Shown here: positions 27 to 28,472 of the stretch, piece by piece
How the letters are laid out: every line of letters begins with the position of its first letter
Position numbering within the stretch: position 1 is the stretch's first letter
Source: Diploschistes diacapsis
Taxonomy: Eukaryota
Length of the DNA stretch: 37,438 nt
NCBI GenBank assembly: GCA_023645945.1
Contig: JALAIB010000063.1
Coordinates: 1 to 37,438, forward strand
Direction: 5' to 3'
The notes under the pieces: generated by a model
Seen by the model: only the letters and a program-made list of their open reading frames with translations
Database searches by the model: none
Told to the model about the DNA's origin: nothing
Made by a program: the position numbers and the translations under genes

Positions 27-33
27 AACCGAC

Positions 34-1476
34 AGAGGGCAACGGCAACAGGTAGTGCGCATGCCGCTCCAAGTTGTCTTTCCAGTAGGTAGATGGCAAG
101 TCCGACCTCAATAGCATTTGCCCAGATCTCATTCATACTCTGCCAGCCGTTCGTAATTCTCTCAATGTCGGCGCTCATCAACGTCAGAGACGCAGCAGGG
201 TTGACAGCAGAAACGCTCAAATCACTTGTCTTACTGTAGAGCATTGAGATGAGGCCACCCCTGGCCATTGTGATGGCTCTGAACGTCAGATGTTGATATT
301 GACTAGTGGAGACCTAATAGGAACAACATTAGTAAAACTCTGGGTCAACCCGATTGACGACGTAGGCGCTCGTACCGCTATTCCCGTATACACCAACAGA
401 TAGGCCCCGATCAGTCCGTACCCGGTGTTGGTCGACTGGTCAGTAACCGGGGCCAGGGAAAGCGCGATGGCATTGTTGATCAAGAATGGCTGGGCGAAGT
501 TGCAACCTAAGAGGCACAAACGTGGAAGAGCGATGGAGATCAACGGCCATCTGAAAGTCTTGAAGGAAGCAAACAGCAGGGAATTGGGACCTTTGTTCGT
601 CACTATGCATCAAACAGATTTCATGTCAGCCCAACGGTTTGGAATAAAGTCGGATGGAAGATTACCCTTGGTCCACGCGGACTGTAACACATGCTCAAGG
701 TACTCGGACGACAGGTGCTTGTCCAAGATGTGAAGATCGTCCACCGCGAGCTGGCCCGAGAATCCCCGTCGGAAGAGACCATTGAGCCATAAGAAAAAGA
801 GCCTGTTGAAGATTCCGGCTGTAGCTTCGGGAGAGGAGATGGCGGCATATTTTGGCAGTAGTATTGTGCCTTTTTCCACGCTTTCTACGACAAGTAGGGC
901 GAGCTTGAAAAGCACCGAAACTGTGACAAGGATTGCAATGGAGCGATTGTACTGCTGCAGCCAGAGGGTCCGCGCCTGAACTATATCGAAAAGCAAAGTC
1001 GAAAATAGGTAGACGCCTAATAAGGTTGATGGTCGGACAGCGCGATCATGTTCGGCATACGAAAGCGCGGGCAGAATCAAGCAAAGGATGAAGCTCAAGA
1101 CTGCTGTAGGCAGGGAGGCGCTTGTGCGAACTGCTGAAGGACCGGCCCAGAGAACAAGAAGAGCAAGTTGCAGTGCTCCAAAGACGGCATAGGTACACTT
1201 GAAAGCTCGTTATCAGCAAACTATCTTGTCGACCACTTCGAAGCCTTGGGGCATTTAACTCACAAGCTTGATAATTGCGAGAGAGCACCGGATCACCTTG
1301 GTCTCCTTTCCCAGCAGATAATACAACCGGCCAGGGGCGGCGATCAAGAGCAAGACGAGCGGAAGCAAGGTCAAGATGGTTTCCTCGAAGTAGAGAGTGA
1401 AGTCAAAACCTCCCCGACAGTCTCCAGCCCAAGGTCCGAAAGTGTTGTCGATACTGGCACAGATATTCGAAGCCAT
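34..1476 (-). CDS. ABCC/MRP-family ABC transporter, 5' part only (TMD0 and start of TMD1); continues beyond the left edge. Exons 1476-1264, 1197-666, 602-376, 313-~34
   Basis: Spliced translation MASNICASIDNTFGPWAGDCRGGFDFTLYFEETIL...SYAEHDRAVRPSTLL...SPEATAGIFNRLFFLWLNGLFRRGF...PRLCLLGCNFAQPFLI...TLMSADIERI...IYLLERQLG matches the typical fungal ABCC N-terminus. Introns 1263-1198 (GTGAGT..AAG), 665-603 (GTAATC..GCTGAC..TAG) and 375-314 (GTACGA..CTAAT..TAG) keep the frame. An alternative in-frame ATG lies at 1497. Confidence 0.93.
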
Positions 1477-4623: not shown

Positions 4624-7600
4624 ATGGCTGGCTTGACTGGAGCACAAGTCGCAAAAGCTACCAACTACTGGAATGCTTACTTGAACGACGTGGAGCGTTG
4701 CCATTTCCCCAAGTATGATAGTGAAGTCCGGGATGGAGAGGAGAAGTCCCTCTTCCTGGATGTGGATGTTCAATGTCTTGAAGAGCTGCAGCAGAGGGCG
4801 GCGAAGGATCCTGCATTCCTTCCCAGCATGCTACGCGCGGCTTGGTCCATTCTTCTCCATTGTTACACGGGGCTCGACGAGGTCTGTTTTGGGTATGGAG
4901 AGGTCGCAGGCGACAGCCAGATCCCGCTCGGGGTAGCCATCTCGGCTCTGGCTGATGCGAAGTTGACGCGACACAAGCTGGACGGAGAGCTTGCCTTGAA
5001 AGTTGTGGTAGAGCATGCGAAGAAGGACTACCAGGACGGAGAAACGTACGGAAGGGCTGCTATCGATAACGCTTTAGTAAAGTCACTTCACGCCTCCAAG
5101 AAGAATCTGTGCAACACGGCGATGTTGATGTGGAAGGCCTCTGGTACCCGCTCGCTCGGTACAGGCACCGGTGTCCTCTCTCAAAGTACGACTGTTGGGG
5201 ACGTATCCGGAGTAAGTGTCGAGAACTGCAGTGCCACCATTTGTCTCTAACGGGAGGTGTGCAGATCCAAATAGTGATTCATTTTGGCAGTTCTCGGAGC
5301 GATCCGCAGGTCTGCCTGGAATGGAGAAACTGTTGCATGTCCTTTGAACAAGCCAAGAGTGTTTCAGCTACTTTTGGCAAGGTTTTGGACCAACTATTAT
5401 TCGATCCGGACATGAAGTTGATCGATCTGAACTGGTTCAGTGAGCACGATATGCGGAAGGTGCTCGCTTGGAACTCGAACGAGCTATCGAAGGTGGACAA
5501 GTGCATCGACGATGTTTTTGAGGAGCAAGCGCTGCTTCGTCCGGACGCCGAGGCAGTATGCTCCTGGGATGGCAGCCTCAGCTATTCCGACCTCTCGGCT
5601 CTTTCTTGCAAATTGGCGGGTTACTTGGAAGAGCTTGACGTTGGCCCGGAAACTTTTGTCCCCGTCTGTTTTGACAAGTCGAAGTACTACATTGTGGCCT
5701 GCATGGCAGTCTTGAAGGCAGGCGGAGCATTTGTACCGCTCGATCCCCAATTTCCCAAGGCGCGCTTGCAATCGTTGGCGCAAAAAATTAATGGTAAAGT
5801 CCTCTTATGCTCACCGCAACACGCGACGATGCTGGAGTCCGTGGCGGACAGAATCATCCCGGTCGATCACGATCTCCTCCGGGACCTGCGGGAATCGCCG
5901 GCCAATCGTAAGTCTCGGTCGGCTCCTGACAACAAGGCTTATATGATTTTCACGTCTGGCACCACCGGCGAGCCCAAGGGCGCAGTGATCGAACATGGAG
6001 CTTTGCTGTCGAGCGCCCGAGCCCATGGTCCAGCCATGCTTATGGACTCTGAAACCCGATCTCTGCAATTCGCTGCGTCGACCTTCGACGTGAGCATTAC
6101 CGAGATCCTCACTACCCTCACCCTAGGCGGATGTGTTTGCGTGCCCAGTGAACACGCTCGACTCAACAAGATCGAAGAGGCCATTAACTCCATGAGGGTG
6201 AACTGGGCGTTGCTCACCCCCACCTTCGTTAAGTTTATTGACCCTGCCGATGTGCCTGGCTTTCGAACTCTCGTCACTGGCGGCGAGGCAATGACGCAGG
6301 CGATTATCCGGTCTTGGTCCCATAGGAACTTGGTAAACTGCTACGGCCCGGCAGAGACTTCTGTTGTGAGCCACGTCAATCCGTTCATGAACGAGGGAAA
6401 GAATCCGCTCTGCATCGGACGCCAAGTCGGCGTCCGATGTTGGGTGGTCGATCGATACAACCACGATCGGCTCATGCCTGTGGGCAGCGTTGGCGAGCTC
6501 CTCATCGAAGGATACACACTTGCCAGGGAGTATTACAGGGAAGAGGAGAAGACGGCCCAGGCCTTCATCTGCGATCCTCTGTGGACCAAGAGTCAACGGC
6601 CCGATCCGAACCGCAAGCGCAGAAGGATGTACAAGACCGGTGACCTGGTCAGGCACAACCTGGACGGAACCCTCCACATTGCCGGGCGAAAAGATACTCA
6701 GGTTAAGTTTCACGGCCAGCGCATTGAAATGGGCGAGATTGAGCATCACATCAATCTCGACCGGAACATCAAGCATGGAATGGTCGTGTTACCAAAGGCC
6801 GGTTTCTGCCAAGGCCGCTTGGTGACCATGATACAATTGGCCGACGGAGACAATCAGGACCTGGTGCGGAACGGGCAGGCCTTCAAGTTCCTCGACGACG
6901 GGTTGAAGAAGATCGCCGAAGAGCACACTGCCGGTACCCGAGAGATGCTCTCCAAGCGATTGCCACCGTATATGGTGCCGTCAATGTGGCTGGTCGTAGA
7001 GTTCATCCCTCGGCTGCAATCCGGAAAACTTGACCGCAAGAGAGTAGCAAGGTGGATTGAAGATATGGGCGAGGATCTCTATCGCCAACTCAATCCTGCC
7101 TCCGAAGCCGCTGCAGGATCCACGGAGCCGGTCAACGAAACGGAGCGGGAGCTGCAGGCAGCTTGGGCGCACGTTCTGAACTTGAATCTGGACCAAGTCG
7201 GTCTCCAACAGTCCTTTTTGAGCTTGGGCGGCGATTCGATATCTGCCATGCAGGTCATGGGAAACTGCCGCAAAAGGGGGATAGGCTTGACCGTGCATGA
7301 GATTCTGCGCAGCAAATCAATTTCGCACTTGTCGCTGCTCGCAAAAACCATTCAGACTGCATCACACTTCGAAGAGACCGTTGACCAACCCTTTGCTCTT
7401 TCTCCCATTCAGCGCCTGTACTTTGCCAGATCTGGGCACGCAGACGGCCATTACAACCAAAGCTTCTTGTTACGCGCAAACCTCGGAATCCAGGAAACTG
7501 ACTTGCGCAAAGCACTCGAACTCGTTATACAGCGGCATTCCATGCTGCGTGCTCGCTTCTCCCGAAACGAGGTGAGCGGGGAGTGGCAACAACGTGTCAC

Positions 7601-10600
7601 CAACGAGATCGCCTCTTCCTATCGGCTTCGCAGTCTCACGGTGAATAATCGGAGTGCGGTTGATTCAAAGGTTGCCCAAAGTCAGACTTGTCTCAACGAA
7701 CTGACGGGCCCTATGCTCGCGGCGGACCTCATCGACGTCAATGGCGAAGAGCAGTTGCTCTTCGTTGTCGGGCATCATCTGATCATTGACCTGGTATCCT
7801 GGCGTGTTATACTTCAGGATGTCGAAGAGCTTCTACTTGACCCGAATGCTTCGCTGGAAAAGCCAATGCCCTTCCAAACCTGGTGTCGCCTGCAAGAGGA
7901 ACATTGCCGATCTCTGACTCCCGCCCAGGCCCTCCCTCTTGAGGATATTCCTTCCGGTGACGCCGAATATTGGGGAATGCAAGACCAACGACATACGTAC
8001 GGAAACATGATCAACGAAGGCTTCGAAATCGACTCAAGCATTACTTCTCTCCTGCTGACAAAATGCCATGATGCACTTCGTACCGACATTCCTGACATTT
8101 TGATCGCAGCGTTGATCTACTCATTTGCTCACACATTTCAGGATCGGCCCCCACCTCCTATCTTCGCAGAAGGTCATGGACGTGAGTCGTGGGACCCGGC
8201 CGTCGACCTTTCACGGACCGTAGGGTGGTTCACGACAATCTATCCGGTGTATGTCTCTGCTGCACGTCTTTCCGAAACGTTGGTCAATATTGTTCGCTAT
8301 GTCAAAGACAATCGACGAAAGATTCCCGGCAAAGGAAGGCCGTACTTCGCCAGCAGATGGCTTACGGCCGAAGGACAGGAAGCTTTCGGACGCCATTGGC
8401 CGTTAGAAGTGACGTTCAACTACCTTGGTCAATATCAACAATTGGAGCGCAAGGATGCTCTACTGACTCCAGCCGCGGGTATTGCTGGTGAGACGAGAGG
8501 TGCAGGAGGCGCTGCAGATGTCGGCCCCGGTGCACCGTGCATTTCCTTCTTCGAAATCTCCGCCGTTATCTTGCAAGGAGCCCTGCGTTTCTCCTTCACC
8601 TTCAACAAGAACATGAGCCATCAGCAGTCCATCCGCCGTTGGATCTCCACTTGCAGGGACGCCATATGTGCTGCTGCAGAGGAGCTGTCACAGAGACCTC
8701 CGGAGACTACACTTAGCGACTTCCCGCTCTTACCTCTTACCTATGGAGGCTTGGAGGATATGAAGTCTGAGAAACTCCCCCGTGCCGGTGTACCATCACT
8801 GGACCTTGTTGAGGACGTATACCCTTGTTCACCGATGCAGGAAGGACTCCTTGTGAGCACCGTCAAGGACAGCCTTTTCTATGCCGCTTACACCCTTCAT
8901 GAAGTGAAGGCCAGAGGAAATGGCAAGGTCGATGCAAATAGACTGGCTCAGGCCTGGCAAACTATTGTCAACAGACACCCCATGCTCCGCACCATCTTTA
9001 TCGAAAGCGTAAGCGAGCGCGATGCACTCTATGATCAGGTTGTTCTAAAGAAGGTTGACGCCCATTCATTCATGTGCCAGGAGGCAACGGACGAAGAAGC
9101 TGTCCAGAATCTCTCGGGCCAGCAAATCGCTGACTATGATGATGGCACCAGACCGCTTCATCGGTTCACGATCTGCACAACTTCCTCCGGTAAAGTTTTC
9201 TGCAGATTGGAGATTAGCCACGTCGTCATGGATGGCACCTCTCTCTCAATCGTTTTCCGTGACTTGGCCCTTGCATATGAAGGGAAGATCGGCGACGGGC
9301 CCGGTCCCCTCTATAGCGATTACATTAAGTATCTGCTCGAGCAGCCCGTTCAGCCCGCAATCGAGCACTGGAGGTCTTATCTTACCAACGTGGAGCCTTG
9401 TCACTTTCCGGTGCTTAACGATGCATTCTCCGGCGGGTCATCTACCAAGGAACTGAAATGTGTGCGTGTTACGTTCGAGAAGCTCCATGAACTCCAAAAG
9501 CACTGTGACCAGGAGGGACTTACCTTTGCAAACGCCCTTCACACTGCATGGGCGTTAACGCTTCGATGCTACACCGACTCCGAGGAAGTTTGTTTCGGTT
9601 ATCTTACCTCGGCGCGCGATGGCCCTATCGAAGGTGCTCAAGATGGCGTTGGCCCGTATATCAATATGCTTGTATGCCGCGTCATCATGGAAGACTCGTT
9701 AACCTTGAAGGGCGTCATGTCACAAGTCCAGCAAGACTATCTCGATAGCCTGCCGTACCGCCACACTCCCTTGGCGGAAGTCCAGCATGCACTGCATTTG
9801 TCGAACGTCTCCCTGTTCAACACGGCTCTTTCTTACAGGAAGCTTCCTCCCGCACCAGATCAGGAGCCCTTGGTTTCATTCGTCGAAGTTGCTCCAACAT
9901 ATGACCCAGATGAGTACAATGTCTCGATAAACATTGAAGCGGGAGAAAACGAGATGGCCATTGATCTGGCTTACTGGACCGACTGCTTGTCTGACGGTCA
10001 GGCACAGAATGTAGCGAGCACCTTCACCCAATCGCTAACAAATATTCTGGACCATTCGAAGCGAGCAATCGGTCAACTGAACAACGTCAGCCAACTCAGT
10101 CACCAGCAGATCGAAAAGTGGAACGATTTGATGCCTGAAGTAGTCGATGACTGCGTTCACAATGTGTTCAAGGAGCAGGTAGCGCTACGGCCTCACGCAC
10201 CTGCGATCTGCGGCTGGGATGCTTGTTATACCTATGCAGAGCTTGATGCTGTATCTTCGAAACTTGCCCATCACCTCCGTCAGCTGGGGGTAGGCCCCGA
10301 GAGCTTTGTCCTCACCTGCTTTGAGAAATCCGCCTATGCAATCATCTCCATGCTGGCGGTTCTCAAAGCCGGTGGTGCCTGCGTGCCCTTGGATGCCAAG
10401 TTCCCCAGGAGCGCCTTGGAATTGCGGGCCAATGACACTGCAGCAAGAGTTATTCTGGCAGCGCCGCAGTGTGCCGAGACGGTGACCGGATTGGTCCCCG
10501 AGGTTCTCTTTATCGACGAGGGATTTTTGAGCCGGCTGCCGACTGCATCCCCTGAGCTTTCGACTTCGGTGCGGTCCCACAACGCTTGTTTCATTATCTT

Positions 10601-13600
10601 CACTTCCGGGAGCACCGGAAAACCGAAGGGTGTAGTATTGGAACATCGCGGTATTACAACAAGTGCACGAGCTCATGGCCCTCTTCTCGGTTATACGCCC
10701 GAATCCAGGGTCCTCCAATTCGCTTCTTACACCTTCGACAACAGCCTTGCGGAGATTTTCACCACGCTCATGCGAGGAGGCTGTGTTTGCGTTCCTTCCG
10801 AGCATGACCGTCTGAACAACTTGGCAGGAGCCATCAACAGTCTCAGGGTGAACTTTATGGACATCACGCCAACGGTAGCCACTTTCCTAGGGCCCTCAGA
10901 AGTTCCTACGCTTAAGCGCCTGGCTTTAGGAGGCGAGGCTGTGACTAAACGAGTTGTCGATATTTGGGGCGAAGCAGTAAGCATGCATGCCTGCTACGGT
11001 CCTTCGGAGTGCTCGATCAACTGTGCTTACAGCGGGGATATTGCGACTCCAGGTAAGGCTACTAACATTGGTAGGGCCTGTGGATGCATATTGTGGGTAG
11101 TGGACTCCAAGAACCATGACCGACTTGTCCCTATCGGTTGCACAGGGGAACTTCTTGTCGAAGGACCAATCGTTGCGAGGGGATACCTCCATGATCCGGA
11201 AAGAACAGCAAAAGCCTTCGTCGAGAACCCAGCATGGGCCAAATTATCCTCCGCGGGAACAAGACGAATGTACAAGACTGGCGATCTTGTGAGATATGAA
11301 TCCGATGGCACGCTCATGTACCTAGGCCGCAAGGATACTCAAGTCAAATTGAACGGCCAAAGGATCGAGCTTGGTGAGATCGAGCACCATGTCGAGAGGA
11401 ACCTTCCCGAGGATGCCCAATCTGCTGTGGAGTTGGCCATACTTGGCGAGAGCCAGACCAGCAAGAAAGCACTCGCAGCGTTCATATGCCTCAAGGGCGA
11501 TGGAGCTGTCCCTGATGCTCATACGAACAACATTCTCTTGTCGATGTCCGATCCTTTCAAGCAAGTGGCTAAATCCCTCGAGATTGCACTTACGAGCACC
11601 ATTCCGGCCTATATGGTGCCTACATCCTGGATTCCTTTGGCTCAAATGCCACTTACTTCCTCCGGGAAGCTCAACCGCAGGCAACTTCGGTTGCTTGCTC
11701 AATCCATACCTGACGAGCGCGTTGCCACGTACAGGCTTGCAGGCAAGAGCGGGCGTGCTCCGGCGACCGAAATGGAGAAGAAGCTTGCAGCTTTGTGGAC
11801 GAAGATTCTGATACTGGATGAGAATGCCGTCGGCGCTGAGGATAGTTTCTTCAAGCTTGGCGGCGACTCTATTGGTGCCATGCGGCTAGTATCCGCTGCT
11901 CGATCGATTGGACTTTCGCTTACCGTAGCTAATGTCTTCCAACGGTCCAAGTTGTGCGAGATGGCAAGCGCAGCAAACGAGATGTCCTCCACGGCAGCGC
12001 CGAGTCAAATTGCGCCGTTCGCTATGATATCAGGGTTGACCTCGATCCCACAACTCAAGTCGGATTTATCGGCATTGTGTAGGGTCGACCCTGAAGCAAT
12101 CCAAGACATATACCCATCTACCTCGATCCAAGAGGGCCTTATGGCGCTGTCTATCAAGGAACCAGGAGCTTACGTTGCCCAAATGGTCTACCGGCTTCCA
12201 TCCGATGTGGACATGAACCGTTTTAGAGCGGCGTGGGACAGGGTTGTGGACGTTGAAATGACCTTGCGCACTAGGATAGCCTACACCGAGAAGTTTGGTT
12301 TTCTTCAAGTGGTAGTTCGGAGCTCGATCCAATGGCACTCTGTTAGCGACCTATACAGTCTTTCAGACACCGACAGACAGATTCCCGCTTACGATGGTGG
12401 AGAATTAAGTCGATACTCTATCGTGGGCGAAGACACAGGGTCACCATATTTCGTTTGGACGGTGCACCACGCGCTATATGACGGTTGGTGTCTGCCACTG
12501 ATCTTGGACAAGGTTAAGGCTGCTTATTACAGTGCTTCTATGAAGACTACTGTGGCCGGCCCGTCATATGCGACATTCATTTACCATCTTACGAAGATTG
12601 ATCAAGCCCGATCGGATGAGTTCTGGCGCACGACATTGGCTGGAGTAAGCTCGTCACAGTTCCCACGGCTTCCTAATCCAAGCTACCAGGCTCGCGCCAG
12701 TGCTATGATGTCTCACAAAGCGAAAGTTTCTCGCAAATCTGGATCCGAAATCACTGCAGCTTCTACCATCAGGGCTGCCTGGGCTCTCACCGTCGCTGCA
12801 TACAGCGGTTCTGAAGACGTTGTATTTTGCGAAACTGTTACAGGTCGCGATGCCCCAGTCAACGGAATTGAGGACATGATTGGAGCAACATTGACGACTG
12901 TCCCCACTAGAGTCCGCATTGACAAAAGCAGCAAGATCATTGATTTCTTAAGAAGTACTCAAGCACAATCTGCGGCGTCAACGCAATTTCAATATGCTGG
13001 CCTGCAACGCATCAAGCGCCTGGGCTCCGATGCAGCGGCTGCCTGCGAGTCTCAGAACCTCATAGCTATCAACAGTGGAAGTAAAGAGTCCGCCAAAGAT
13101 GCCTTCTGGGATGTCCAAAACAACGACATGGCTGGCACTAACTTCTATACCTACCCGCTCATGCTTTCGTGTTACTCGGATACCAGTGAGGTCGAGGTAG
13201 ACGCTCACTACGACGAGGATCTGATTCCTGCTTGGCAGATGGAAAGAATTCTGCGACAATTTGGTTTCGTCCTAAGCCATCTGGCTGCGGCAACTGAAAA
13301 TTGCGAGACTCTGGCGGAGATCGACCTTCTTAGCCCGGAAGACAAAAGCACCATTGCGCGATGGAACAGCGAACCGCTTCTTGTCGTTGATAAATGTGTT
13401 CATGACATTGTCTATGAGCAAGGAGTTGCGCTACCCAAGGAACAACCCGCAGTGTGCGCTTGGGATGCCTCTTTCACATATAGGGAGCTTGATTTTCTCG
13501 CCTGCCGCCTTGCTTCGAATCTCATTCAGCTCGGTATTCGCCCCAACATGGTTGTTCCTCTATGCTTTGAGAAGTCTGCCTACACAGTTGTTGCAATGCT

Positions 13601-16600: not shown

Positions 16601-19600
16601 CTTCCCTCTATTGCCTCTGACTTACGATGGTCTTTCGAAACTTACCCGAAGGCTTCCCGAGCTGGGTGTTGCCTCAATCGAAGATATCGAAGATGTATAT
16701 CCTTGTTCGCCCATGCAGCAAGGTCTTCTCTTGGCGCAAGTTCGGAACCCACAGAACTACACCTACCATGCTATCTTCGAGGTCACCTCAAAGTATGCAG
16801 GTCAGCTGGTGGATACCTTGCGCCTCTCGAAGGCGTGGCAAGCTGTAATCGATCGCCATCCAGCACTCCGTACAGTCTTCCTGGACAACATCAGCCAACC
16901 GGGCGTGACCGATCAAGTCGTTCTGAAGAATTTCACCGCTCGGATGTCCTGGCTGCAGAGCGCTGACTCGGAAGCCATTCTGGGCCTACAGCAGCAAGAG
17001 CCACTTGACTATAGTCTGTTCCAGCCTCCTCACTGCTTGTCTATTTGCAAAGGAACTAGCGGACGGGTTTTCTGCAAGCTCGAGATGAGCCACGTTATCT
17101 CTGACGGCACTTCAATGCCTATCATCCTGGGCGACCTTTCCAAAGCGTATGAAGCAAGCGGGCTTGAGAAGGGACCACTATACAGCGACTATCTTGCACA
17201 CGTGAAGTGGAAGACTACTGCAGCCGATGTGGACTACTGGAAATCGTATCTAATGGACATTGAGCCCTGCTACTTCCCCACCTTGATTGATGGCAAGCAA
17301 AGCGCCAGACAGCTCAAGTCCTTGGATATAGAATCTCCTCTGACGCCGGACATGCAAGCATTTTGTGCCAGGAACGGTGTCACCCTTGCCAATGCCCTTC
17401 AGTTGACTTGGGCCTTGGTACTGAAGTGCTATACCGGATCCAGCGACGTCTGTTTTGGTTACTTGGTTTCCGGGCGTGACGTTCCCGTCCCTGGCATTCA
17501 ACAGGCAGTCGGCGCTTTCATTAACATGCTTACCTGCCGGATCAATCTATTGGATGGTACCAGAGTCAATGAGGCGATGCAGCAGGTTCAGACCGATTTT
17601 GTCAACGGGATGTCCCATCAATCTTGCTCGCTGGCTGAAGTACAGCATGAGCTTAAGATGTCTGGCTCGGCCCTGTTCAACACCGCGTTCACTTTCCAGC
17701 GACGCTCGGGGACCAAGGATCTTGCAGAAAACTCCCTTCAGTACGATTTCGCTGAAGCTTGCGACCCGAGCGAATACCATGTCACTGTTAACGTAGAGAC
17801 TTCTGATTCAACCATGGTTCTTGGCTTTACGTACTGGTCCGATGGCTTCTCCGAGGCTCAAATTCAAGGTGTTGCAAGCGTCTTTCAGCAGGTGCTTAAG
17901 TGCATGACACTGGACAGCAATCGAGATTCCTCTCTCGGCGAACTGGACTTCTTCAGCGAGCGCAGTATTGAACAAGCCCTCCGGTGGAATAGCAAGCTTC
18001 CGCAAAAGGTGAACAGATGTATCCATGACTTCGTTGAAGAACACGCCAGAACTCGGCCTTCGGCGACGCCAGCTATCAATGGTTGGGATGGCAATTATAC
18101 TTATGCGGAGCTTGACAGTGTGACAGACCGTCTTGCTCAACATCTGGTTACTCTGGGAATTGGCCTCGAAAACATTGTGCCTCTGTGTTTTGAGAAATCT
18201 TCGCTAACCATTGTGGCCATGCTTGCCGTCATGAAGGCAGGGGCTACATTTGTGCCAATCGACTCCACGCAACCCGAAAGCCGACTTAAGTATCTATTCG
18301 AAAGCACTCAAGCCAAGCTGGTATTGTGTTCTCCTGGTCGCGCTAAGAAAATCTCCGCCATTATTAACAGTGTTTCTGTTGTCAGCCAGGAGTCTCTTGC
18401 AGCGCTGCCCGCGCAGGCATTATCCAATATGATCAAACCAACGCCTGATAATGCTGCTTATATTATCTTTACCTCTGGAACAACAGGGCTGCCGAAAGGA
18501 ACCATCATCGAACATGCTGCATTCTGCACAGGTGCTACCGAGCATGCCAAAGCCATGATGATGCGATCAAACTCTAGAGTCCTTCAATTCGCCTCTTATA
18601 CGTTCGACGCGAGTGTTATGGAAATCTTATCGACTTTAATCGCCGGTGGTTGTGTTTGTGTACCCACCGATCAGGAACGAATGAACGACATTCCGGGCAT
18701 CATAAAGCGAATGGGCATAACTTGGACGCTGCTGACCCCATCTGTTGCAAGCATTCTGAGGCCAGATAGTGTTCCGAGCTTAAGAGTTCTCGTCACCGGA
18801 GGTGAAGCCATGTCCGCTGATCATATCAGGAAATGGCAAGGAAGCCATATCGCTCTGGTCAATGCCTATGGTCCCAGCGAATGCTCTGTCATTGCAACCC
18901 TAAGCGTCAAGGTTGACGAAGGAGGCCGCGAGATCAACGGAGAACCTGCTAACATAGGCCACGCGATTGGTGGTCGCAATTGGGTTGTCAATCCGAACAA
19001 CCACGATCAGCTGGTGCCTACTGGAGCCATTGGTGAGCTCGTTGTAGAAGGACGCACCACCGCCCGAGGTTATCTCAACAACGAAGAAAAGACAAAGGCT
19101 GCCTTCATCGCAGACCCAGCTTGGACAAGGAAACAAGCCTTTGGCGAGATATTTGTGCACAGGGAAAGAATGTACAAGACTGGTGATTTAGTTCGCTGCA
19201 ATTCGGATGGTAGCTTTACCTACATCACCAGGAAAGATACGCAGATCAAGCTTAACGGTCAACGTATCGAGGTGGCTGAGATCGAGCACCATGTCAAGCA
19301 GAATCTCCCGGATACCTCGCAAGCTGCAGTCGACCTTGTTGCACCTGTCGGAGGCCGCAAAGCGCTGGCAGTATTCTTCTCTGTCCCGGCTTCCTCTGTT
19401 GGAAGAGCCAATCATGCCCGGGCAATGTCTGCAGTTGATGAGATCTTGCTTCCCATCTCCGGTGAAGCCAGTACTATCGCCAAAAACATGGAGGTCGCGC
19501 TCGGAGGTGCCTTGCCAGCTTACATGGTACCTTCATTGTTCATTCCTGTCAGAAAGATGCCTTGGACAACTTCTGGGAAACTGGATCGATCGAGGCTGCG

Positions 19601-22600
19601 CAACATGGTCCAAGCGCTATCTAAAGAAGACATCATCTCCTACAAACTTGGTGGAAGTAGTAGCAAGCGGGCTACTAACACTGCCATGGAAAAGCGGCTA
19701 CAAAAGCTTTGGGAAACTGTCATTGGTCTTCCTGCAGGCTCCGTTGGAGCAGACGACAACTTCTTCCGCATCGGTGGAGACTCGATTTCTGCGATGAAGC
19801 TCGTTGGTCTTGCGGATGCTGAAAATCTCATCCTGACAGTTTTGAACATTTTCCGTAATCCAAAGCTTTCTGAGCTCGCAAGGACCTGCACGACGCTCAA
19901 GAAAACCGCCGATCCGGAGCTTCAACAATTTGCTCTGCTCAAGCAAGCCGAGCCAGTCGAGCAGACCCTGCACGAACTGGCAAGTCAATGCAGGATTGAA
20001 GTTGCTTCCATCCAGGATGCTTATCCTTGCAGTCCCCTTCAGGAAGGTCTTTTGACACTTTCAATGAAACAGGCAGGCGCCTATGTCGCCAAGAACGTGT
20101 TCAAAGTACCTTCAAATGCAGATGTCGGGCGCCTACAGGCAGCTTGGCAACAGACCGTGGATGAAGTGGACATTCTAAGAACCAGGATTGTGCATACAAA
20201 GTCCTCGGCCTTCGTGCAGGTCGTACTCAAGACGGAAAGTATCACGTGGAAGACTGTCGGAACGTTGCGTGAGGCAGAAAGCGATGCTATCAAGATCCCT
20301 CTCTTCAATGGTGGAACGCTCGCACAATACACTATCGTCAATGGATCTAAGCCAAGCACACGCTACTTTGTCTGGTCCATTCACCATGCGCTGTATGACG
20401 GATGGAGTATGCCAATGGTACTCGAAAGATTTGAGTCCAACTACCGGGCAACTGAGCCACGTTCGCCTCAACTTCCGTATTCTCGCTTTATCCAATACCT
20501 CGGTGAAGTAGACTGGAAGGCTTCGGACGAGTACTGGAAGTCAAAATTATCCGAGACCTCTGCATTGAGATTCCCAGCTGTGAACCTCTCTACTTCTGAG
20601 GACACTTTCCAAAGCAAAAAGCTTACACACAGTGTCCGCATCTCGCGAGATTTTGCAAGCACCGGTGTCACCCTTCCGACCATTATCAGAGCCGCCTGGG
20701 CTTTGGTAATCGCTACTTACACTAGCTCCAACGATGTTGTATTTGGAGAGACTCTTGCAGGCCGCGACATCCCAGTTCCTGGCATCACCAGCGTCCTGGG
20801 CCCGACACTGACAACCATCCCCCAACGAGTCCGGCTCGATAAAGCCTTTTCTCTCCAACACCTTTTGCAGGAAATCCATCAACTCTCCGCCGAGGTGATA
20901 CCATACCAACACGCTGGGCTGCAGCATATCCGATGTCTTAGCTCGGATGCGGAGACTGCTTGTGATTTCCAGAATCTGTTGGTCATACAGACCGCAGGAG
21001 AGGGTGGTCGTTTGGACTTGTTGCGGCCCCAAGATGACGGCGTCAGCGATTCTTTCTTCACCTACCCCCTTGTTCTTGAGTGCACGGCTAACGTGGCGCA
21101 AATCGATATCGAGGCACACTATGACCTGAGCGCTATGAGCGAATGGCAAATGGAAAGATTGCTCTACCAATTTGACTCGGTCCTCAAACAGCTCGGTGTG
21201 GCACATCGCAACCCTGGCCAGACCATAAGTGAGGTCCAAGTTTTTAGCCCACAGGACATGCAGCTAGTTCGTGATTGGAACTACAACGCGCCGATTGCTT
21301 TCGATGAGTGCATCCACAAGGTCTTTGCGCAGCTTGCATTGCGGCAACCTGAGTCCCCTGCGGTGTGCGCGTGGGACATGAACCTAACTTACAGGGAGTT
21401 ACATGAGCTGGCCGTCCGGCTTGCAGGAACCCTGTCAAGGCTGAATGTTGGTCGCGAGGGTCTTGTCCCTGTAGTCATCGACAAGTCAGGCTGGAGTATA
21501 GTCTCTATGATGGCCATCCTGCTCGCCGGTGGTGCATTCGTCCCACTGGATTCTGCTCATCCTACGTCAAGGCACATTGAGATTATCAATAATGTTCAAG
21601 CAACGGTACTCATCACGCCTCCGCAGTATGTGGCAAAATACAAAGACCATGTTGAGCATGTTGTCACAATCGACGAAGCGTCGATGTCAGCTATGGGTGG
21701 AGCAGGATCATTTCCAGATGTGGACAGCAACAATACCGCCTACGTCATATTCACTTCCGGCAGCACAGGTAAACCGAAAGGTGTCGTGATTGAGCATGGC
21801 GCCTTTTGCTCGAGTTCAAATGCCTTCCGCCGTGAAATGTTTATGAAACCCGATTCCCGTGTTCTTCAATTTGCCTCGCTGACGTTCGATGCTGGGGTCA
21901 TGGAGGTGTTCACGACTTTGACCTTTGGTGGTTGTGTCTGTATACCGAGTGATGAGGCCCGAGTAAAGGATCTTGAAAGCGTGATCAGAGATATGAACGT
22001 CACCTGGACGTTCCTTACCCCCTCCGTGGCGAATATTATGGATCCCTCTCTCGTTCCTTGCCTCCAAGTGCTTTCTTGTGGTGGGGAGGCCCTTTCCGAG
22101 GAGACAGTGTTGAGATGGGCGGACAATGTGACTCTGGTCAACGGTTACGGTCCAACAGAAGCTTCGGTCTTTGCGGTTTTGAATCCCCACGTTTCAAGAG
22201 ATCGCGATGCAACATGTATTGGTCGTGGCCATGCTGGTGGCTATACTTGGATTACCGAACCCGACAACCATGATCGTCTGGCTCCTGTGGGCAGCGACGG
22301 AGAGCTCTGCCTGGAAGGCCCGTTACTTGCTCGAGAGTACATCAACGACGAAGAAAAGACGAACGCCGCATTCATCAAGGATGCTGCTTGGATGAAGGCC
22401 TTTGATAACGGTACTGATGGTCGTCGCATATACAAGACTGGCGATCTTGTCAGGTACCACAAGGACGGGTCAATTATCTTCGTGGGGCGCAAAGACAACC
22501 AAGTGAAATTACACGGTCAACGTATGGAGCTTGGCGAGATTGAGCATCGTCTCGAAGTCTGTCCTCAAATCAAGCACGTATTTGTTGCGTTGCCAAAGCA

Positions 22601-25600
22601 CGGTCTTTGCCAGAAACGGCTCGTTGGTGTCGTGTCCATCGACAACCTCCCGGGTGCTCCTGGCGTACCCGCTGCCAACAGCTGCAACTTGATGGCTGAG
22701 GGTCAGCGGCTTGACGCAGCGCGTGCGAAGGTGGCCGAAGCCAGCACCCGTCTTGCGGATCAAGTACCAGGGTATATGGTACCTTCCATTTGGGTGATCC
22801 TAGAGGCGCTACCAATTCTTGTGTCAGGAAAGCTTGACAGGAAAAAGGTGGGCATGTGGCTTGAAAATATGGATGAGCCCACGTATAGAGCAGTCACTAA
22901 AAGCATCGGGAGCGAGGACACTTCTAGCCCGCAAACACCCACTGCTCAAGTTCTACGCCAAGTCTGGGCCAGTGTGTTTGATATGCCTGCGGAAAGCATC
23001 AAATTCAACGAGTCCTTCCTCAGCTTGGGCGGCGACTCCATCAGTGCTATGCGCGTGATGGCAAAGGGCCGCAAAGAAGGTCTCAATCTCTCACTTCAGG
23101 ACATCCTTCGCAGCAAGTCAATCTCACAACTGGCGGCTGTGATCGGCGATATCGTCCCTGGCTCCTCGGCCGATGTCGTTGAAGAAGAAGTTGTTGACCG
23201 AGCGTTTGACGTATCGCCAATTCAGAGTCTGTTCTTTGAATCCATCGGCGGAAACTCGGGAGACGCTCAATTCAACCAAAGCTATTTGCTTGAAATCCGA
23301 AGCAAGGTCACAGTCGACGATGTGCGCAATGCCCTCGAGGCTGTCATCGGCAAGCATTCCATGTTGAGATCGAGGTTTGCTAAGAGTTCAGATAACAAAT
23401 GGCAGCAACGTGTTACTAACAACGTTGTTGCATCCTATCGATTCAGTGCTCACAACGTTCCTGACAAACAATCCATGGCATCCGCAATCGCTGATAGCCA
23501 GACAAACATGAACATCGAAGAGGGACCTCTTCTCTCTTCCAACCTCTTCAACATTCAGGATGGTAGGCAGGGCTTGTTCCTCGCTATTCATCATTTGGTT
23601 GTCGATGCAGTATCGTGGCTTGTCATCCTTCAGGATCTGCAGGATGTCCTGAGCAAGAAACCGCTCACCATGGACAAGCCACTTCCGTTTCAAGTCTGGT
23701 GCAACATGCAAGCAAAGAATGCACAGAACGAAAGTGCTTCGAACATCCAGAAGCTTTTGCCCGTCGGCTTCGCGCCAGCGCAGAGGGACTACTGGGGTCT
23801 GCCTTCTCAAGGCGACACTTACGGCGACGCAGACTCCATCTCGTTCACTTTAGATCAGGAGATAACCTCTCTGGCCCTGGGAAATTGTCATCAATCTCTT
23901 CGCACAGAGCCCGTTGACGTATTCCTGTCTGCAATCGCTCAATCTTTCACTCGGATCTTTACCGACCGCAAGACTGCCACGATATTCAATGAGGGCCATG
24001 GTCGTGAACCTTGGGACCCAAGCATTGATTTGTCAAGAACAGTTGGGTGGTTCACCACCATGTATCCTCTCCACGTCGACCTTGACTATAACGAGGATTC
24101 TGTGAACATCGTCAAGAGGATGAAAGACGCTCGACGCAAAGTTCCCAATAATGGACGACCATACTTTGCCAGTCGGTACATCACCGCTGAAGGCCGGTCT
24201 AGGTTCCAGAAGCACATGCCGATGGAAATTCTCTTCAACTATCTTGGTCGTACCAGCTCTGTCGGGAAGGAGGATTCTTTACTCGAACAGATGGAATACC
24301 ATGACGATGAAAAAACTGCCCGCTTGACAGCTGACGTAGGCCCAAAGACCCCAAGACTGGCCGTCTTCGAAATTTCGGCTGCGGTCTCCGACGGCCGGAT
24401 TCGGTTTGCCTTCATGTTCAACAGGAATCTGGAAAATATTGAAAGTGTCAAGCTATGGGTAAAGGAGTGCCAGCTTACCCTTCATGAGACAGTACAAAAG
24501 CTTGCAACCATCTCTAAACAGCCTACCTTGAGCGATTTCCCATTACTGCCCTTATCGTACAGGGAATTGGAAAGATTGACTACCCAGAGCCTCACCAAAT
24601 CTGGTATTACTAACCTTGAGGAGGTTGAAGATATCTATCCTTGCTCTCCAATGCAAGAAGGCCTTTTATTGAGTCAGTCTCGAGATCCAAAGAGTTACAT
24701 CTTCCACACAGTTTCGGAGGTCAAGCCTCTCTGGTTCGACTCCGCAATCGATGCACAGAAGCTAGTAACTGCTTGGCAGATGGTTGTTGATCGTCATCCA
24801 GCACTGAGAACTGTGTTCATTGATAGCGTCTACAAGGGTGGCGTCTTTGATCAGATAGTTGTACGGAAGGCTGATAGTGGAGCCCTGAGCATCGAGTGCA
24901 GCGACACGGAGGTCCTGGACACTCTTGCCGCAATCACGATTCAGGACCAGAACTTCAAGAAGCAGCCGAAACTGCCACATCAGTTCACCGTCTGCAAGAC
25001 TCGATCCGGCAACGTCTTCTTCAAGCTGGAAATCAACCACGCAGTCATCGACGGAGCTTCTTCAGGAAACATCATGCACGATCTGGCACTTGCTTACGAA
25101 GGCAGGCTAGTAAGCGGCTCAGGTCCATTGTACAGTGATTACATTTCCTACCTAAAGGAGCAAGGACCTACGGCGGGCATTGAGTACTGGAAGACCTACC
25201 TCAACGGCGTACGGCCGTCCCTTTTCCCGGCCTTGAACAGTGCAACCGCAGTTAAACAGCTAGGGTCTGCGCCCATGAGATTCGGCAGATATGCCGAGCT
25301 TCAAGATATGTCCAAAAAACTCAACGTCACCCTCTCAAACGTTATGCATGCGGCCTGGGCGGTTGTTTTGCGATCTTATATGAATGCAAATGACGTCTCG
25401 TTCGGATACTTGACCGCGGGGCGCGATGCACCGATCAAAGGAATTCAAGATGCTGTCGGTGCTTTTATCAACATGTTAATCTGTCGCATTGAGTTCAAGC
25501 CCGAGATGACTCTGGCGGATCTCTTTACCAAGGTCCAAAACGAATACCTCGAGAGCCTACCACACCAACACTCCTCACTGGCGCAAGTCCAGCACGAGCT

Positions 25601-28472
25601 CAAGATCCCTGGGAAGGCACTCTTTAACACCGCGGTCTCTATCCAAGGCTCTTCCTCGTCGGACAACGTTGAAGGGAACACAATCTCGTTTGAGACTATG
25701 GTGGCGCACGACCCCAGCGAGTATGCCGTCACTGTGAATGTTAATGTCACACCTGGTGACGAGGGTGTGGTCTTCCGATACTGGACCAATGTGCTTTCTG
25801 ACATTCAAGCTGCTGAGCTAGCGGAGACAATGGCTAGCCTCCTCCAATCGATGATTGAAAATCCTAACCAAACGATTGGGGACATGGACAAGAGTCGAGC
25901 TCCAACGCAGATGCCAGTCACACCATCGAACGGTACCTCCGTCGCTGATCTTCGGCCCTTGATCAAGGACTGTGTGCAAGAGGTCATTGAGCATATGTTC
26001 AAATCCGGCTCCTTGATCCAATACAAGCCCAATGAAGCTACCGCGCTGCCCACCATCAAGGTTGACCAGGAAAACAGAAGACGCAATACAATCACCCAAG
26101 CAGAGAACGAGAAGGTCTTGAAGACCATCGCAGCCGAAATTACTGCTGCGCGACCAACTAAAGAGATGGTGAAGGCGAATGAGATAGTGCAAAAGGTGAA
26201 GGAACTCAAGCCTAAAGTCGCGGTTAACGTTGCTGAAAAGAAATTCCTAACCCTATGGAGTGATGCTTTGGATATGACGGAAGACTCGATCGACAGCAAT
26301 GACAGCTTCTTCGAACTCGGTGGAGACTCGATTACCGCGATGGAAATGGTTGGAGCGGCTCGGGAAGCCGGACTCTCCATGACTGTTGCCGATGTGTTCC
26401 AGAATCCAACCTTCGTGGAAATGCTCTCTGTCGTCCGCAGTACTGAGGCGCTGGAGGCCATAAGCAGCGGCGCAGTCAGCTCGAATGCTTCTCGTGAAGT
26501 GATTACTTATGCCGTGGCCAACGAGACATACGAGCCGTTTTCATTGCTCGAAACGGAAGACGTTCCCAGCTTCTTGCAAAACCATGTCTGCTCACAAGTC
26601 AACGTTTTCAAGGGTGGACTTGCCGACGTTATGCCACTCACCGATTTCCAAACCCTGAGCGTTACTGCGTCGCTCTTGGAGTCGAGATGGATGCTGAACT
26701 ACTTCTACCTCGATGGCAGAGGCGAAGTCGATATCAAGAGGTTGAGGCAGAGCGTGTCCAAGTTGACTCAAACTTACGACATCCTTCGCACTGTCTTCAT
26801 CCCGTACGGTGACCGATTCTTACAAGTCGTTCTCCGACAGATGGAGCCGGACTTCAGCGTCGTTGAGACCGAACATAGCTTGGAAGGCTTTACCGCCCAG
26901 CTTCATGAGAAGGACATCAATAACCCTCCCCGCCTTGGGCAGTCTTCGCTTCAATTCATCCTTGCCAAGCTGAAGGATACAGATCGTCATCGCATCCTGA
27001 TCAGGATTCATCATGCCCAATATGATGGTATAGGCCTAGCCAAGATCCTGACAGCTCTGCAAGCAGGCTACAATGGCTTACAGATCGCGTCCGCGCCATC
27101 ATTCTCTCGTTTCGTCAATCATGCCATTGGGAGAAACACCAATGCTCACTACGACTACTGGAAGGGATTGCTTCATGGATCGCTCATGACTGAGGTGGTG
27201 CACCGGCAGAAGCCAAACTACAACCGCGCTTGTGGTGAAACCATCACCCTTGCGGAAGACGTCGTTCTCCCAAGCCTTGCCGCTCACAACATTACCGATG
27301 CAACCGTAATAAAGGCTGCATGGGCCTTGGTTATTGCTGAGCTCACCGCTCAATCAGACGTTACGTTCGGAAATCTGGTCAATGGAAGAGCAGCCCCTAT
27401 TAACGGTGTCGAACATATTATCGGGCCGTGCCTTAACATCATCCCTGTCCGAATCATGTTCCAGCCTTATTGGACCGTTCTCGATCTCCTGCGCAGTGTG
27501 CAAGAGCAACACGTCGCTAGCATGTCCTATGAGAACCTTGGCTTCCGCGAAATTATCAAGCATTGCACAGAATGGCCCAATTGGACCAACTTTACTACCT
27601 GCGTCCAGCATCAAAACATGGGCCAGCACAGCGAGCTCAAGCTTGGAAAGAATGAGTACAAGGTCGGAAATCTTGGATCGAACGAAGATTTCGCCGACTT
27701 CAGTGTTGTCTCCACTCCAAAAGACAGCAATCTGGTGGAAATAAGCCTGATTTATGCGTCAGACGGCCAGATTCCCTCCGACTTTGCCGAGAAGGCGCAC
27801 CGGATGCTCTGCGAAACTGTGACAAACTTCTCCGAACATCCGCATTGGACCCTGCTAAACCCCAAGAAGCTGATTGGTATGCCCTGCCAGATACTGGACG
27901 AGCAGCGCATCTCCGAAGACTCGTCCGTTCTGCACGCCACGGACAACTTGACCGAAGCTCAGCTTCAAATCCTCTTCGACATGGTCGGTCCCGCATGGCA
28001 AGCCGTGTTACCGCGCAAGGAGGACGGCGGGCGTCCCAACTTCAACGTCGACTCCAACTTCTTCGATCTGGGTGGGGACGTCACCGGTCTGGCCCTCATA
28101 TCCGTCAATCTCCAGGGCCAAGGCTTTGCCGTCTCCATCGAGGATCTCCTCGACAACCCAACCATGCGGGACCAGATGGGCCTGATCTCGTTGCAACACT
28201 TCAAGCACCTCGATCGCGCCGACAGACAGTCCATCTCCGGCTCCGACACTTCTACACTGGCGGATGCGGATGAGTTTGCGCAGCGGATGCAGCAGCAGCA
28301 GCGACGTCCTGGCTCGAGCCGCTTGGGTCGGCCGAGGCCGAGTATTGATAATATGTGGAAGAAGAGCATGAATTTTATGGGCAAGTTCATGAAACGTGGG
28401 TCAATGACGATGTTGAATAGGGGGAGCCACGTCGGAGGGGAGTTCGCAGATGGAGACGCAGTAGATGGGTAG
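4624..28472 (+). CDS. NPS4: Multimodular nonribosomal peptide synthetase, NPS4/NRPS4 (fusahexin synthetase)-like, about 7,931 aa. Exons 4624-5211 and 5265-28472. Architecture halfC-A-T-E-C-A-T-C-A-T-E-C-A-T-C-A-T-E-C-T-CT-T*
   Basis: ATG in accATGg context at 4624. A 53-nt phase-0 intron 5212-5264 (GTAAGT..CTAAC..CAG) joins the 4609 ORF to the 7787-aa ORF. There are five A domains (FTSG(T/S)TGxPKG, YGPxE, YKTGDL, SGKL(D/N)R), six GGDS carriers, three E domains (HHLxxDxVSW, EGHGRE, TVGWFTT, FNYLG), five internal C domains and a terminal HHAQYDG CT domain. The symbol is a family assignment from architecture and the adjacent ABC transporter, not proven orthology. Confidence 0.95.
4660..5430 (+). 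other. NRPS N-terminal truncated condensation domain (C-terminal half only, no HHxxxDG); approximate limits
   Basis: NYWNAYLNDVERCHFP and AAWSILLHCYTGLDEVCFGY align with the second half of the post-epimerase C domains in the same protein. Confidence 0.8.
5490..8690 (+). other. NRPS module 1: A1-T1-E1 (D-residue); approximate limits
   Basis: AYMIFTSGTTGEPKG at about 5937; GGDS Ser codon 7236; HHLIIDLVSW at 7773; AEGHGRE. Hand-extracted code DVTLVGCVVK. Confidence 0.9.
8815..11980 (+). other. NRPS module 2: C(DCL-type)-A2-T2 (L-residue); approximate limits
   Basis: SHVVMDG at 9216; FTSGSTGKPKG at about 10599; GGDS Ser 11868. Hand-extracted code DNADAGCINK. Confidence 0.9.
12105..16580 (+). 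other. NRPS module 3: C(LCL-type)-A3-T3-E2 (D-residue); approximate limits
   Basis: HHALYDG at 12465; FTSGTTGKPKG at about 13842; GGDS Ser 15108; HHLVVDVVSW at 15654. Hand-extracted code DAMLVGAVIK. Confidence 0.9.
16690..19885 (+). other. NRPS module 4: C(DCL-type)-A4-T4 (L-residue); approximate limits
   Basis: SHVISDG at 17088; FTSGTTGLPKG at 18468; GGDS Ser 19782. Hand-extracted code DAMLVGAVIK. Confidence 0.9.
20015..24510 (+). other. NRPS module 5: C(LCL-type)-A5-T5-E3 (D-residue); approximate limits
   Basis: HHALYDG at 20382; FTSGSTGKPKG at 21750; GGDS Ser 23037; HHLVVDAVSW at 23589. Hand-extracted code DAMFSGGVFK. Confidence 0.9.
24630..26435 (+). other. NRPS module 6: C(DCL-type)-linker-T6 with no adenylation domain; approximate limits
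   Basis: NHAVIDG at 25035; about 110 aa without any A-domain motif (~25890-26225); intact FFELGGDS, Ser codon 26328. Confidence 0.88.
26625..28190 (+). other. NRPS termination region: terminal condensation-like (CT, cyclising) domain followed by a degenerate T domain; approximate limits
   Basis: IHHAQYDG at 27006 resembles the fungal CT SHAQYDG motif. No thioesterase or reductase domain is present. The last carrier reads FFDLGGDV (Val codon 28080 in place of Ser). Confidence 0.85.

What the first reader, a model, noticed from the sequence alone, without database searches (positions are those of the whole stretch)
4624..28472. Intact NPS4-type megasynthetase predicted to make a possibly undescribed alternating D/L cyclic hexapeptide
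Seen: an uninterrupted NRPS of about 7,931 aa with epimerases in modules 1, 3 and 5 only, six intact GGDS carriers and a terminal CT domain, which implies cyclo(D-L-D-L-D-L). Established: Fusarium graminearum NRPS4 makes fusahexin, cyclo(D-Ala-L-Leu-D-allo-Thr-L-Pro-D-Leu-L-Leu), with the same stereo-pattern, and this family is linked to surface hydrophobicity. Inference: hand-extracted codes (A1 DVTLVGCVVK, A2 DNADAGCINK, A3 = A4 DAMLVGAVIK, A5 DAMFSGGVFK) do not fit a collinear Thr-then-Pro at modules 3 and 4, so the product is probably a different peptide. Even-membered alternating D,L-cyclopeptides are known to stack into tubes, so it might act as a self-assembling surface or membrane-active material.
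Basis: partly seen in the sequence, partly recalled or inferred. Interest (0 to 1): 0.75.

Follow-up and report, generated by a model that had tools for sequence, protein, structure and literature searches.

The report
Lichen fungus fusahexin-type peptide synthetase
This is an intact lichen-fungus gene for a giant enzyme of a known family that makes water-repellent ring peptides; it probably makes a one-residue variant of the Fusarium peptide fusahexin, and its family tree hints that Fusarium's lineage got the gene from lichen-lineage fungi.

Summary
The gene is real: 7,931 aa with one 53-nt intron, architecture C*-ATE-CAT-CATE-CAT-CATE-CT-CT plus a dead seventh carrier, and a divergent ABC-C transporter upstream. 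The host is a Graphidaceae-like lichen fungus. It is a module-for-module orthologue of Fusarium graminearum NRPS4 (FGSG_02315), in the published WARP (water-repellent peptide) family.

Only A5 differs (7 of 10); it is 9 of 10 like the Val pocket of HcpA. The codes fit fusahexin read from Thr: D-allo-Thr, Pro*, D-Leu, L-Leu, D-Ala, L-Leu. Predicted product (inferred): a fusahexin analogue with D-Val for D-Ala, [M+H]+ 635.41. Tube stacking is already proposed in print for WARPs, and a Thr=Pro bicycle would hinder it.

Two by-products matter more: the published module assignment for fusahexin looks off-register, and Hypocreales NRPS4 nests among lichen Ostropomycetidae, sister to Stictis, which suggests horizontal transfer. 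The scan noted a WARP synthetase before, in Paecilomyces.

The parts
1..1476 (-). 5' part of an ABC-C (MRP-type) transporter gene, divergent from the NRPS and cut by the contig end; presumed exporter
   Evidence: TMD0_ABC and TIGR00957 matches, both weak and below cut-off. Named hits are ABC-C/ABC multidrug transporters. ATG at 1476 read from sequence. Two top hits lie on contigs of the same lengths as NRPS orthologues P0011 and P0008.
4624..28472 (+). NRPS gene, 7,931 aa, two exons
5212..5264 (+). GT-AG intron, 53 nt
   Evidence: a 1-nt insertion at 5259 in relatives X2 and X3 falls inside it
4624..5441 (+). N-terminal degenerate condensation-domain remnant
   Evidence: Pfam Condensation E 6.5e-6, below cut-off; 7 of 11 scored differences non-synonymous
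5439..8642 (+). Module 1, A-T-E; code DVTLVGCVVK; inferred D-allo-Thr
   Evidence: code identical to FgNRPS4 A1; residue assigned by elimination
8796..11969 (+). Module 2, C(DCL)-A-T; code DNADAGCINK; inferred Pro* unit, probably loaded as glutamate-5-semialdehyde/P5C or as Pro
   Evidence: 9 of 10 with FgNRPS4 A2
12051..16523 (+). Module 3, C(LCL)-A-T-E; code DAMLVGAVIK; inferred D-Leu
   Evidence: 9 of 10 with FgNRPS4 A3
16674..19883 (+). Module 4, C(DCL)-A-T; code DAMLVGAVIK; inferred L-Leu, probably also loads T6
   Evidence: identical to FgNRPS4 A4
19962..24458 (+). Module 5, C(LCL)-A-T-E; code DAMFSGGVFK; the one pocket that differs from FgNRPS4; inferred D-Val (or Ile/Leu)
   Evidence: 7 of 10 with FgNRPS4 A5, 9 of 10 with HcpA A3 as printed in PMC4041764
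24612..26429 (+). Module 6, C(DCL)-T without an A domain; inferred L-Leu loaded non-linearly
26589..27818 (+). Terminal CT domain (HHAQYDG), presumed macrocyclisation
27969..28181 (+). Degenerate seventh carrier (GGDV, no Ser); boundaries approximate
   Evidence: present without Ser in 43 of 56 family members, absent in all 11 rows of the Hypocreales clade and in 2 truncated ORFs

Best explanation
A WARP-family synthetase orthologous to FgNRPS4, in a Graphidaceae-like lichen fungus. It most likely builds a fusahexin analogue starting from Thr. M1 loads Thr, which E1 turns to D-allo-Thr. M2 loads the Pro* precursor (glutamate-5-semialdehyde/P5C, or Pro). M3 gives D-Leu, M4 L-Leu, and M5 a D-aliphatic residue, most likely D-Val where Fusarium has D-Ala. 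The A-less T6 is loaded with L-Leu by A4 or A3, and CT closes the ring. The Thr hydroxyl closes the oxazinone onto the Pro* delta-carbon. The neighbouring ABC-C transporter exports the peptide to the hyphal surface, where it adds to water repellency. Shown: gene, architecture, orthology, codes, ABC neighbour. Inferred: residues, register, T6 loading, oxazinone, export and function.
For: Each A domain's best match in FgNRPS4 is the same module (66, 60, 53, 55, 44% against at most 49% off-diagonal), and each falls in the same-module clade. Codes match FgNRPS4 at 10, 9, 9, 10 and 7 of 10. A3 and A4 are near-identical in both enzymes, which suits Leu-Leu and not Thr-Pro. Of the three D-first registers of fusahexin, only the Thr-first one gives like pockets like residues and lets an existing A domain load T6. 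The A2 pocket is polar; 76 of 91 family proteins carry an acidic DNED version. Chemical synthesis shows the oxazinone forms stereoselectively from a Glu-delta-aldehyde precursor without an enzyme (PMC12340964). A5 is 9 of 10 like HcpA A3 (Val/Ile), which holds the same place before E-C-T-C-T, and a Circinaria-cluster orthologue matches it exactly. A5 is the variable pocket in Hypocreales-type enzymes: 15 codes among 45 proteins, against 44 of 45 identical at A4. Putative Fusarium NRPS4 products vary Ala/Val three residues after the Pro* unit. NRPS plus upstream ABC, with E in every other module, is the published WARP pattern, and deletions lose hydrophobicity. In exon 2, 20 of 26 scored differences to relative X2 are synonymous.
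Against: The published model assigns Ala, Leu, Thr, Pro to modules 1-4 and reuses module 5 for D-Leu and L-Leu (review PMC10967133). That model has the merit that the adjacent A5 loads T6, one of two options discussed for HcpA; mine needs A4 or A3 to skip past module 5. Fungal A-domain codes are weak predictors, and the Val call rests on one calibrated enzyme; Ser at 299 is untested. A1 and A2 do not co-vary tightly: DNAD-type A2 occurs with non-Thr-type A1 in Leotiomycetes and Acarospora, and P0005 and P0011 pair the Thr-type A1 with DNED. The A5 identity margin to FgNRPS4 is small (44 against 41%). The 45-protein tally was selected on A1 and A2 prefixes, so constancy there is partly circular. 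Relative X2 shows two 1-nt coding deletions (8777, 14171), both in homopolymer runs: an artefact or a broken copy, unresolved. No metabolite or expression data exist here.
Confidence: 0.6

Rival explanations
1. The published register is right (Ala, Leu, allo-Thr, Pro, then module 5 used twice). The query would then make a D-Val/L-Val version of fusahexin, about [M+H]+ 579.35 (hand arithmetic).
For: Stated in the review; A5 lies next to T6; HcpA A3 may load two carriers.
Against: It requires near-identical A3 and A4 pockets to choose Thr and Pro, a polar Asn/Asp/Asn A2 pocket to choose Leu, and two unlike pockets (A2, A5) both to choose Leu.
Confidence: 0.15
2. The enzyme makes fusahexin itself, or a mixture that includes it, because A5 still accepts Ala.
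For: A1-A4 are the same as in FgNRPS4 and A5 shares 7 of 10; WARP A domains are promiscuous and each enzyme makes several congeners.
Against: The three A5 changes move the pocket to the HcpA Val type and are shared by 6 of the 7 Graphidaceae-like orthologues tabulated besides the query.
Confidence: 0.13
3. One reading: a substantially different all-amide D/L hexapeptide that stacks into tubes or acts on membranes.
For: The alternation is encoded; the protein is only about 50% identical to FgNRPS4; the WARP authors consider tubular stacking reasonable.
Against: Four of five pockets are unchanged from the fusahexin enzyme. Fusahexin has beta-turns and a tertiary-amide bicycle, which removes a stacking N-H (recalled principle). 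Simulations found all-L and D/L peptides similarly amphiphilic.
Confidence: 0.08
4. For the tree pattern: hidden paralogy with differential loss, not horizontal transfer, puts Hypocreales NRPS4 next to Stictis.
For: The family has old duplicates (two copies each in Glonium and Zopfia), other placements also break the species tree (Chaetomium with Glonium, Anthostomella with Byssothecium), and only the top 120 of about 580 hits per search were seen.
Against: Three successive supported nodes would each have to be a pre-class duplication. Stictis is 64-65% identical to Neonectria and Paramyrothecium but 55% to the query, while Paramyrothecium is 45% identical to Chaetomium. The dead seventh carrier is kept in Stictis and lost in all Hypocreales rows, which fits Hypocreales as the derived side.
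Confidence: 0.3

Closest known systems
Fusarium graminearum NRPS4 (FGSG_02315), fusahexin synthetase
   Same: Same five-A, six-T, three-E, C-T-CT architecture; one-to-one module orthology; A1-A4 codes 10, 9, 9, 10 of 10; ABC transporter neighbour.
   Different: About 50% identity; A5 DAMFSGGVFK against DIGFVGGVFK; the query keeps a longer N-terminal C remnant and a degenerate seventh carrier; the host is a lichen fungus.
Penicillium chrysogenum/rubens HcpA and Aspergillus Pes1/NidA (fungisporins)
   Same: WARP family; last epimerising module followed by an A-less C-T and C-T; its A3 code DAMFVGGVFK (Val/Ile) is 9 of 10 like the query A5 (from PMC4041764; protein not retrieved).
   Different: Four A domains, non-linear order, tetrapeptide products.
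Cochliobolus heterostrophus NPS4 / Alternaria brassicicola NPS2
   Same: Same family and hydrophobicity phenotype; Pleosporales homologues share the architecture from T1 onward.
   Different: Most Pleosporales homologues seen lack A1 and carry the DNED-type A2; products unknown. These two proteins themselves were not retrieved.
Apiospora arundinis NRPS4 (apiosporins)
   Same: WARP; a D-residue followed by a side-chain-derived heterocycle (D-Tyr, Lys), then Leu-rich alternation with one variable Ala/Leu position.
   Different: Six modules, heptapeptides; sequence not retrieved, so module homology is untested.
Unstudied orthologues in Thelotrema lepadinum, Circinaria calcarea and Stictis urceolata
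   Same: The Thelotrema-cluster protein has the same codes but for V/I at A3 and is 75% identical; the Stictis protein is Fusarium-like at all five pockets.
   Different: No product is reported in the papers I could search.

Membership tests
WARP / NPS4-Pes1-HcpA synthetases | Multimodular NRPS with an epimerase in every other module | tested here: met
   E in modules 1, 3, 5
WARP / NPS4-Pes1-HcpA synthetases | ABC transporter gene upstream | tested here: met
   ABC-C 5' part at 1-1476, minus strand; the rest lies beyond the contig end
WARP / NPS4-Pes1-HcpA synthetases | C-terminal A-less C-T-C tridomain | tested here: met
WARP / NPS4-Pes1-HcpA synthetases | Phylogenetic orthology to a characterised member | tested here: met
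   All five A domains and the C/E domains group with FGSG_02315
WARP / NPS4-Pes1-HcpA synthetases | Product is a hydrophobic cyclic D/L peptide at the cell surface | not testable with these tools
   Inferred from architecture and codes only
WARP / NPS4-Pes1-HcpA synthetases | Loss of the gene makes the mycelium wettable | not testable with these tools
   Shown for other members
Fusahexin synthetase in the strict sense | A1-A4 pockets as in FgNRPS4 | tested here: met
   10, 9, 9, 10 of 10; both differences are Val/Ile
Fusahexin synthetase in the strict sense | A5 pocket as in FgNRPS4 | tested here: not met
   7 of 10; three changes toward the HcpA Val type
Ghadiri-type tube-forming D,L-cyclopeptides | Even-membered ring with strict D/L alternation | tested here: met
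   Predicted from E placement and six carriers; product not observed
Ghadiri-type tube-forming D,L-cyclopeptides | Flat ring with free backbone N-H on both faces (recalled criterion) | tested here: inconclusive
   If the Thr=Pro unit is kept, as the A1/A2 codes suggest, it is not met: fusahexin shows beta-turns

The most novel reading that the evidence does not exclude
The fusahexin assembly line arose in lichen-lineage Ostropomycetidae and passed horizontally from a Stictis-like fungus to the ancestor of Hypocreales, so Fusarium's water-repellent peptide has a lichen-lineage origin. The line reads Thr-first, and module 2 loads an amino-acid semialdehyde that closes the oxazinone without an oxidase. 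Graphidaceae lichens make an undescribed D-Val analogue that helps keep the thallus water-repellent.
Probability: 0.35. Interest if true: 0.68.

Novelty: new member of a known kind. Interest (0 to 1): 0.42.

Why it matters
The gene itself is an expected member of a widespread, published family, and the preprint already lists Lecanoromycetes among WARP carriers. Its value is comparative. It gives an exact mass to look for in lichen extracts, where water repellency keeps gas spaces open and is usually credited to hydrophobins and phenolics (recalled). It makes the module assignment of fusahexin, and the origin of its rare oxazinone ring, testable with four A-domain assays. It also exposes a strongly supported nesting of Hypocreales NRPS4 inside a lichen-fungus clade. 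If that is horizontal transfer, a trait conserved across Fusarium came from another fungal class.

Tried and rejected
P450 next door as the ring-forming oxidase: rejected. It resembles benzoate 4-monooxygenase (CYP53/BphA; Atlas score 0.98), has no close paralogue in G000, and is followed by Vps39 and an HbrB-domain gene; it looks like a housekeeping neighbour. The published F. graminearum cluster lists no P450.

The code table was garbled by a gap-character bug and was not used.

Literature look-ups of the codes: 0 papers for six strings (three of the six were wrong-column forms) and 1 paper for six corrected strings. PheA (1AMU) was hit but its alignment was not among the five printed, so position numbering is recalled.

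Co-transfer test with the ABC gene: inconclusive. Of 10 hits looked up, none was a named Hypocreales or named lichen fungus. HcpA, Pes1, ChNPS4, AbNPS2 and Apiospora NRPS4 were not among the listed hits, so they are compared from papers only.

Expression: no RNA holder listed. Promoter region: only short simple repeats. Searches for a published transfer of NRPS4 or for Graphidaceae NRPS products found nothing relevant among the listings seen, nor did a search for the Fusarium solani hexapeptides. No structure prediction was run.

Full report
1. Observation. The longest frame in the window runs 5070-28472 (7,800 codons). A 1-nt insertion inside this intron in two related runs supports the gene model. 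Motif scans and profile searches give C*-A-T-E-C-A-T-C-A-T-E-C-A-T-C-A-T-E-C-T-CT. All six carriers have GGDS, each C after an E is of the DCL type, and a seventh carrier-like segment lacks the serine. The gene is single-copy in G000. Of 563 differences to relatives, 40 were shown; of the 37 coding ones, 20 of 26 in exon 2 and 4 of 11 in exon 1 are synonymous. One relative (X2) has two 1-nt coding deletions in homopolymer runs, which I could not resolve.

2. Surroundings and host. An ABC-C transporter gene starts at 1476 on the minus strand and runs off the contig. Downstream lie a benzoate-4-monooxygenase-like P450, Vps39 and an HbrB-domain gene. The HbrB protein places the host within Ostropomycetidae. 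The nearest named NRPS cluster is Thelotrema lepadinum (75% to its ENA cluster-mate), so the host is Graphidaceae-like. The DNA occurs in a lichen and a rock metagenome.

3. Comparison with the fusahexin enzyme. A search with modules 2-3 found 584 proteins, of which 120 were listed. One cluster holds FGSG_02315. Each query A domain is closest to the same module of FgNRPS4 (66, 60, 53, 55, 44%) and falls in the same-module clade. The FgNRPS4 codes are DVTLVGCVVK, DNADAGCVNK, DAMLVGAVVK, DAMLVGAVIK and DIGFVGGVFK. Only A5 differs.

4. Mechanism (inferred). A review gives the published assignment as Ala, Leu, allo-Thr, Pro for modules 1-4 with module 5 used twice (PMC10967133, passages). I could not read the original 2021 J. 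Nat. Prod. paper, which may argue this in more detail. That assignment needs twin pockets to select Thr and Pro. Reading the ring from Thr gives D-allo-Thr, Pro*, D-Leu, L-Leu, D-Ala, L-Leu: twin pockets both take Leu, the polar A2 takes the ring-forming residue, and T6 receives Leu from A4 or A3. The third possible register leaves no A domain for Pro. The cost of my reading is non-adjacent loading of T6; HcpA offers a proposed precedent (PMC4041764, passages). Family data agree in part. A2 begins DNED in 76 of 91 proteins examined (79 new hits plus 12 chosen), an acidic pocket unlike a Leu pocket. Among 45 Hypocreales-type proteins (picked from the list by A1/A2 prefix), A4 is identical in 44 and A5 has 15 codes. 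Synthesis shows that the oxazinone forms from a Glu-delta-aldehyde without an enzyme, and the authors favour that route (PMC12340964, first fifth and passages), which would remove the need for a cluster oxidase. The query A5 is 9 of 10 like HcpA A3 (Val/Ile), and along the tree A5 steps from DAMF- (Graphidaceae-like, Circinaria) to DIGF- (P0015, Stictis, Fusarium). Predicted main product: cyclo(D-allo-Thr=Pro-D-Leu-L-Leu-D-Val-L-Leu), [M+H]+ 635.41. The same sum with Ala gives 606.374, which matches fusahexin's C30H50N6O7. Against: A1 and A2 types do not co-vary tightly, fungal codes are weak predictors, and WARP enzymes make mixtures.

5. Known context. A 2026 preprint (10.64898/2026.07.13.738209; whole main text read; supplements closed) defines WARPs by an NRPS with alternate epimerases plus an upstream ABC gene, reports them across Pezizomycotina including Lecanoromycetes, shows wettable deletion mutants and surface localisation, and proposes Ghadiri-type stacking. 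Its Fig. S1 and Tables S1 and S4 may already list lichen members or a phylogeny. The sequence-testable membership features are met; strict identity with the fusahexin enzyme fails at A5. Other papers seen as passages only: PMC11677700, PMC2823734, PMC10455296.

6. Unexpected tree. In all five A-domain clades (37 proteins) and in C/E-domain trees (56 proteins), Hypocreales NRPS4 is sister to Stictis and nested within the clade of the query, Circinaria and unnamed ENA proteins. A mixture-model tree (16 of the 56 rows, every fourth column) supports the nodes at 100/99, 100/100, 97/97 and 99/99. AU tests (23 of 56 rows, every third column, LG+G4) reject holding the seven lichen-clade rows together (p 2e-76), Hypocreales with Chaetomium (6e-65), Hypocreales with Leotiomycetes (2e-43) and all Lecanoromycetes together (8e-56). 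The first grouping was named after the tree was seen, and P0008, P0013 and P0015 have no named members. Stictis is 64-65% identical to Neonectria and Paramyrothecium but 55% to the query. The dead seventh carrier is present in 43 of 56 proteins, including Stictis, and missing in all 11 Hypocreales-clade rows, which fits Hypocreales as recipient. The family also has old paralogues and other off-tree placements, sampling was limited to top-120 lists, and the ABC control was inconclusive, so I put transfer at about 0.6-0.7. Searches for a published statement found none (0 papers; top 10 of 811 listings).

7. Verdict. This is a new member of a known family with a probable one-residue product variant. 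The interest lies in the register correction and the possible lichen-lineage origin of Fusarium NRPS4. Interest 0.42.

Noticed in passing
window 28780-30388 (-): Benzoate-4-monooxygenase-like P450 (510 aa, intron 28929-29004) with third-position GC of 0.94-1.0 over most of its length, against 0.58 in the NRPS: a sharp GC island with no close paralogue in G000.
   Followed up: partly
window about 36800-37438 (+): Third-position GC in the HbrB-domain gene climbs from about 0.55 to 0.84-0.98 at its 3' end, a second GC-rich patch; the genome may be a mosaic of GC levels.
   Followed up: no
P0104 (Diaporthe eres): The one named non-Hypocreales Sordariomycete with a Fusarium-type NRPS4; it nests between Neonectria and Fusarium (77% to Neonectria). 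A second transfer or a contaminated assembly.
   Followed up: no
P0349 (Anthostomella pinea), P0329 (Chaetomium): Other Sordariomycete family members also sit off the species tree: Anthostomella with Byssothecium (Pleosporales), Chaetomium with Glonium.
   Followed up: no
P0274-P0352, Pleosporales rows: Most begin at T-E and lack A1, so their first carrier must be loaded from elsewhere; several appear to have the Val-like and Leu-like pockets of the last two A domains swapped.
   Followed up: no
P0059, P0069, P0072, P0275, P0279, P0282: The fifth A domain gives no code (absent or degenerate) in this Trypethelium/Bogoriella/Bathelium group.
   Followed up: no
P0005, P0010, P0011: Close relatives of the query carry a DNED-type A2, and P0010 also a changed A1, so products probably vary within Graphidaceae-like lichens.
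   Followed up: partly
window 8777 and 14171 in run X2: Two 1-nt coding deletions in C5 and G6 runs in a 98%-identical relative: sequencing artefact or a broken copy.
   Followed up: partly
window 2228-2272: 9-bp tandem repeat (about five copies) in the 3.1-kb region between the divergent ABC and NRPS genes.
   Followed up: no
window 30978-34064 (+): Vps39-like gene in several exons (CNH, Vps39_1, zinc finger); not part of the cluster.
   Followed up: no
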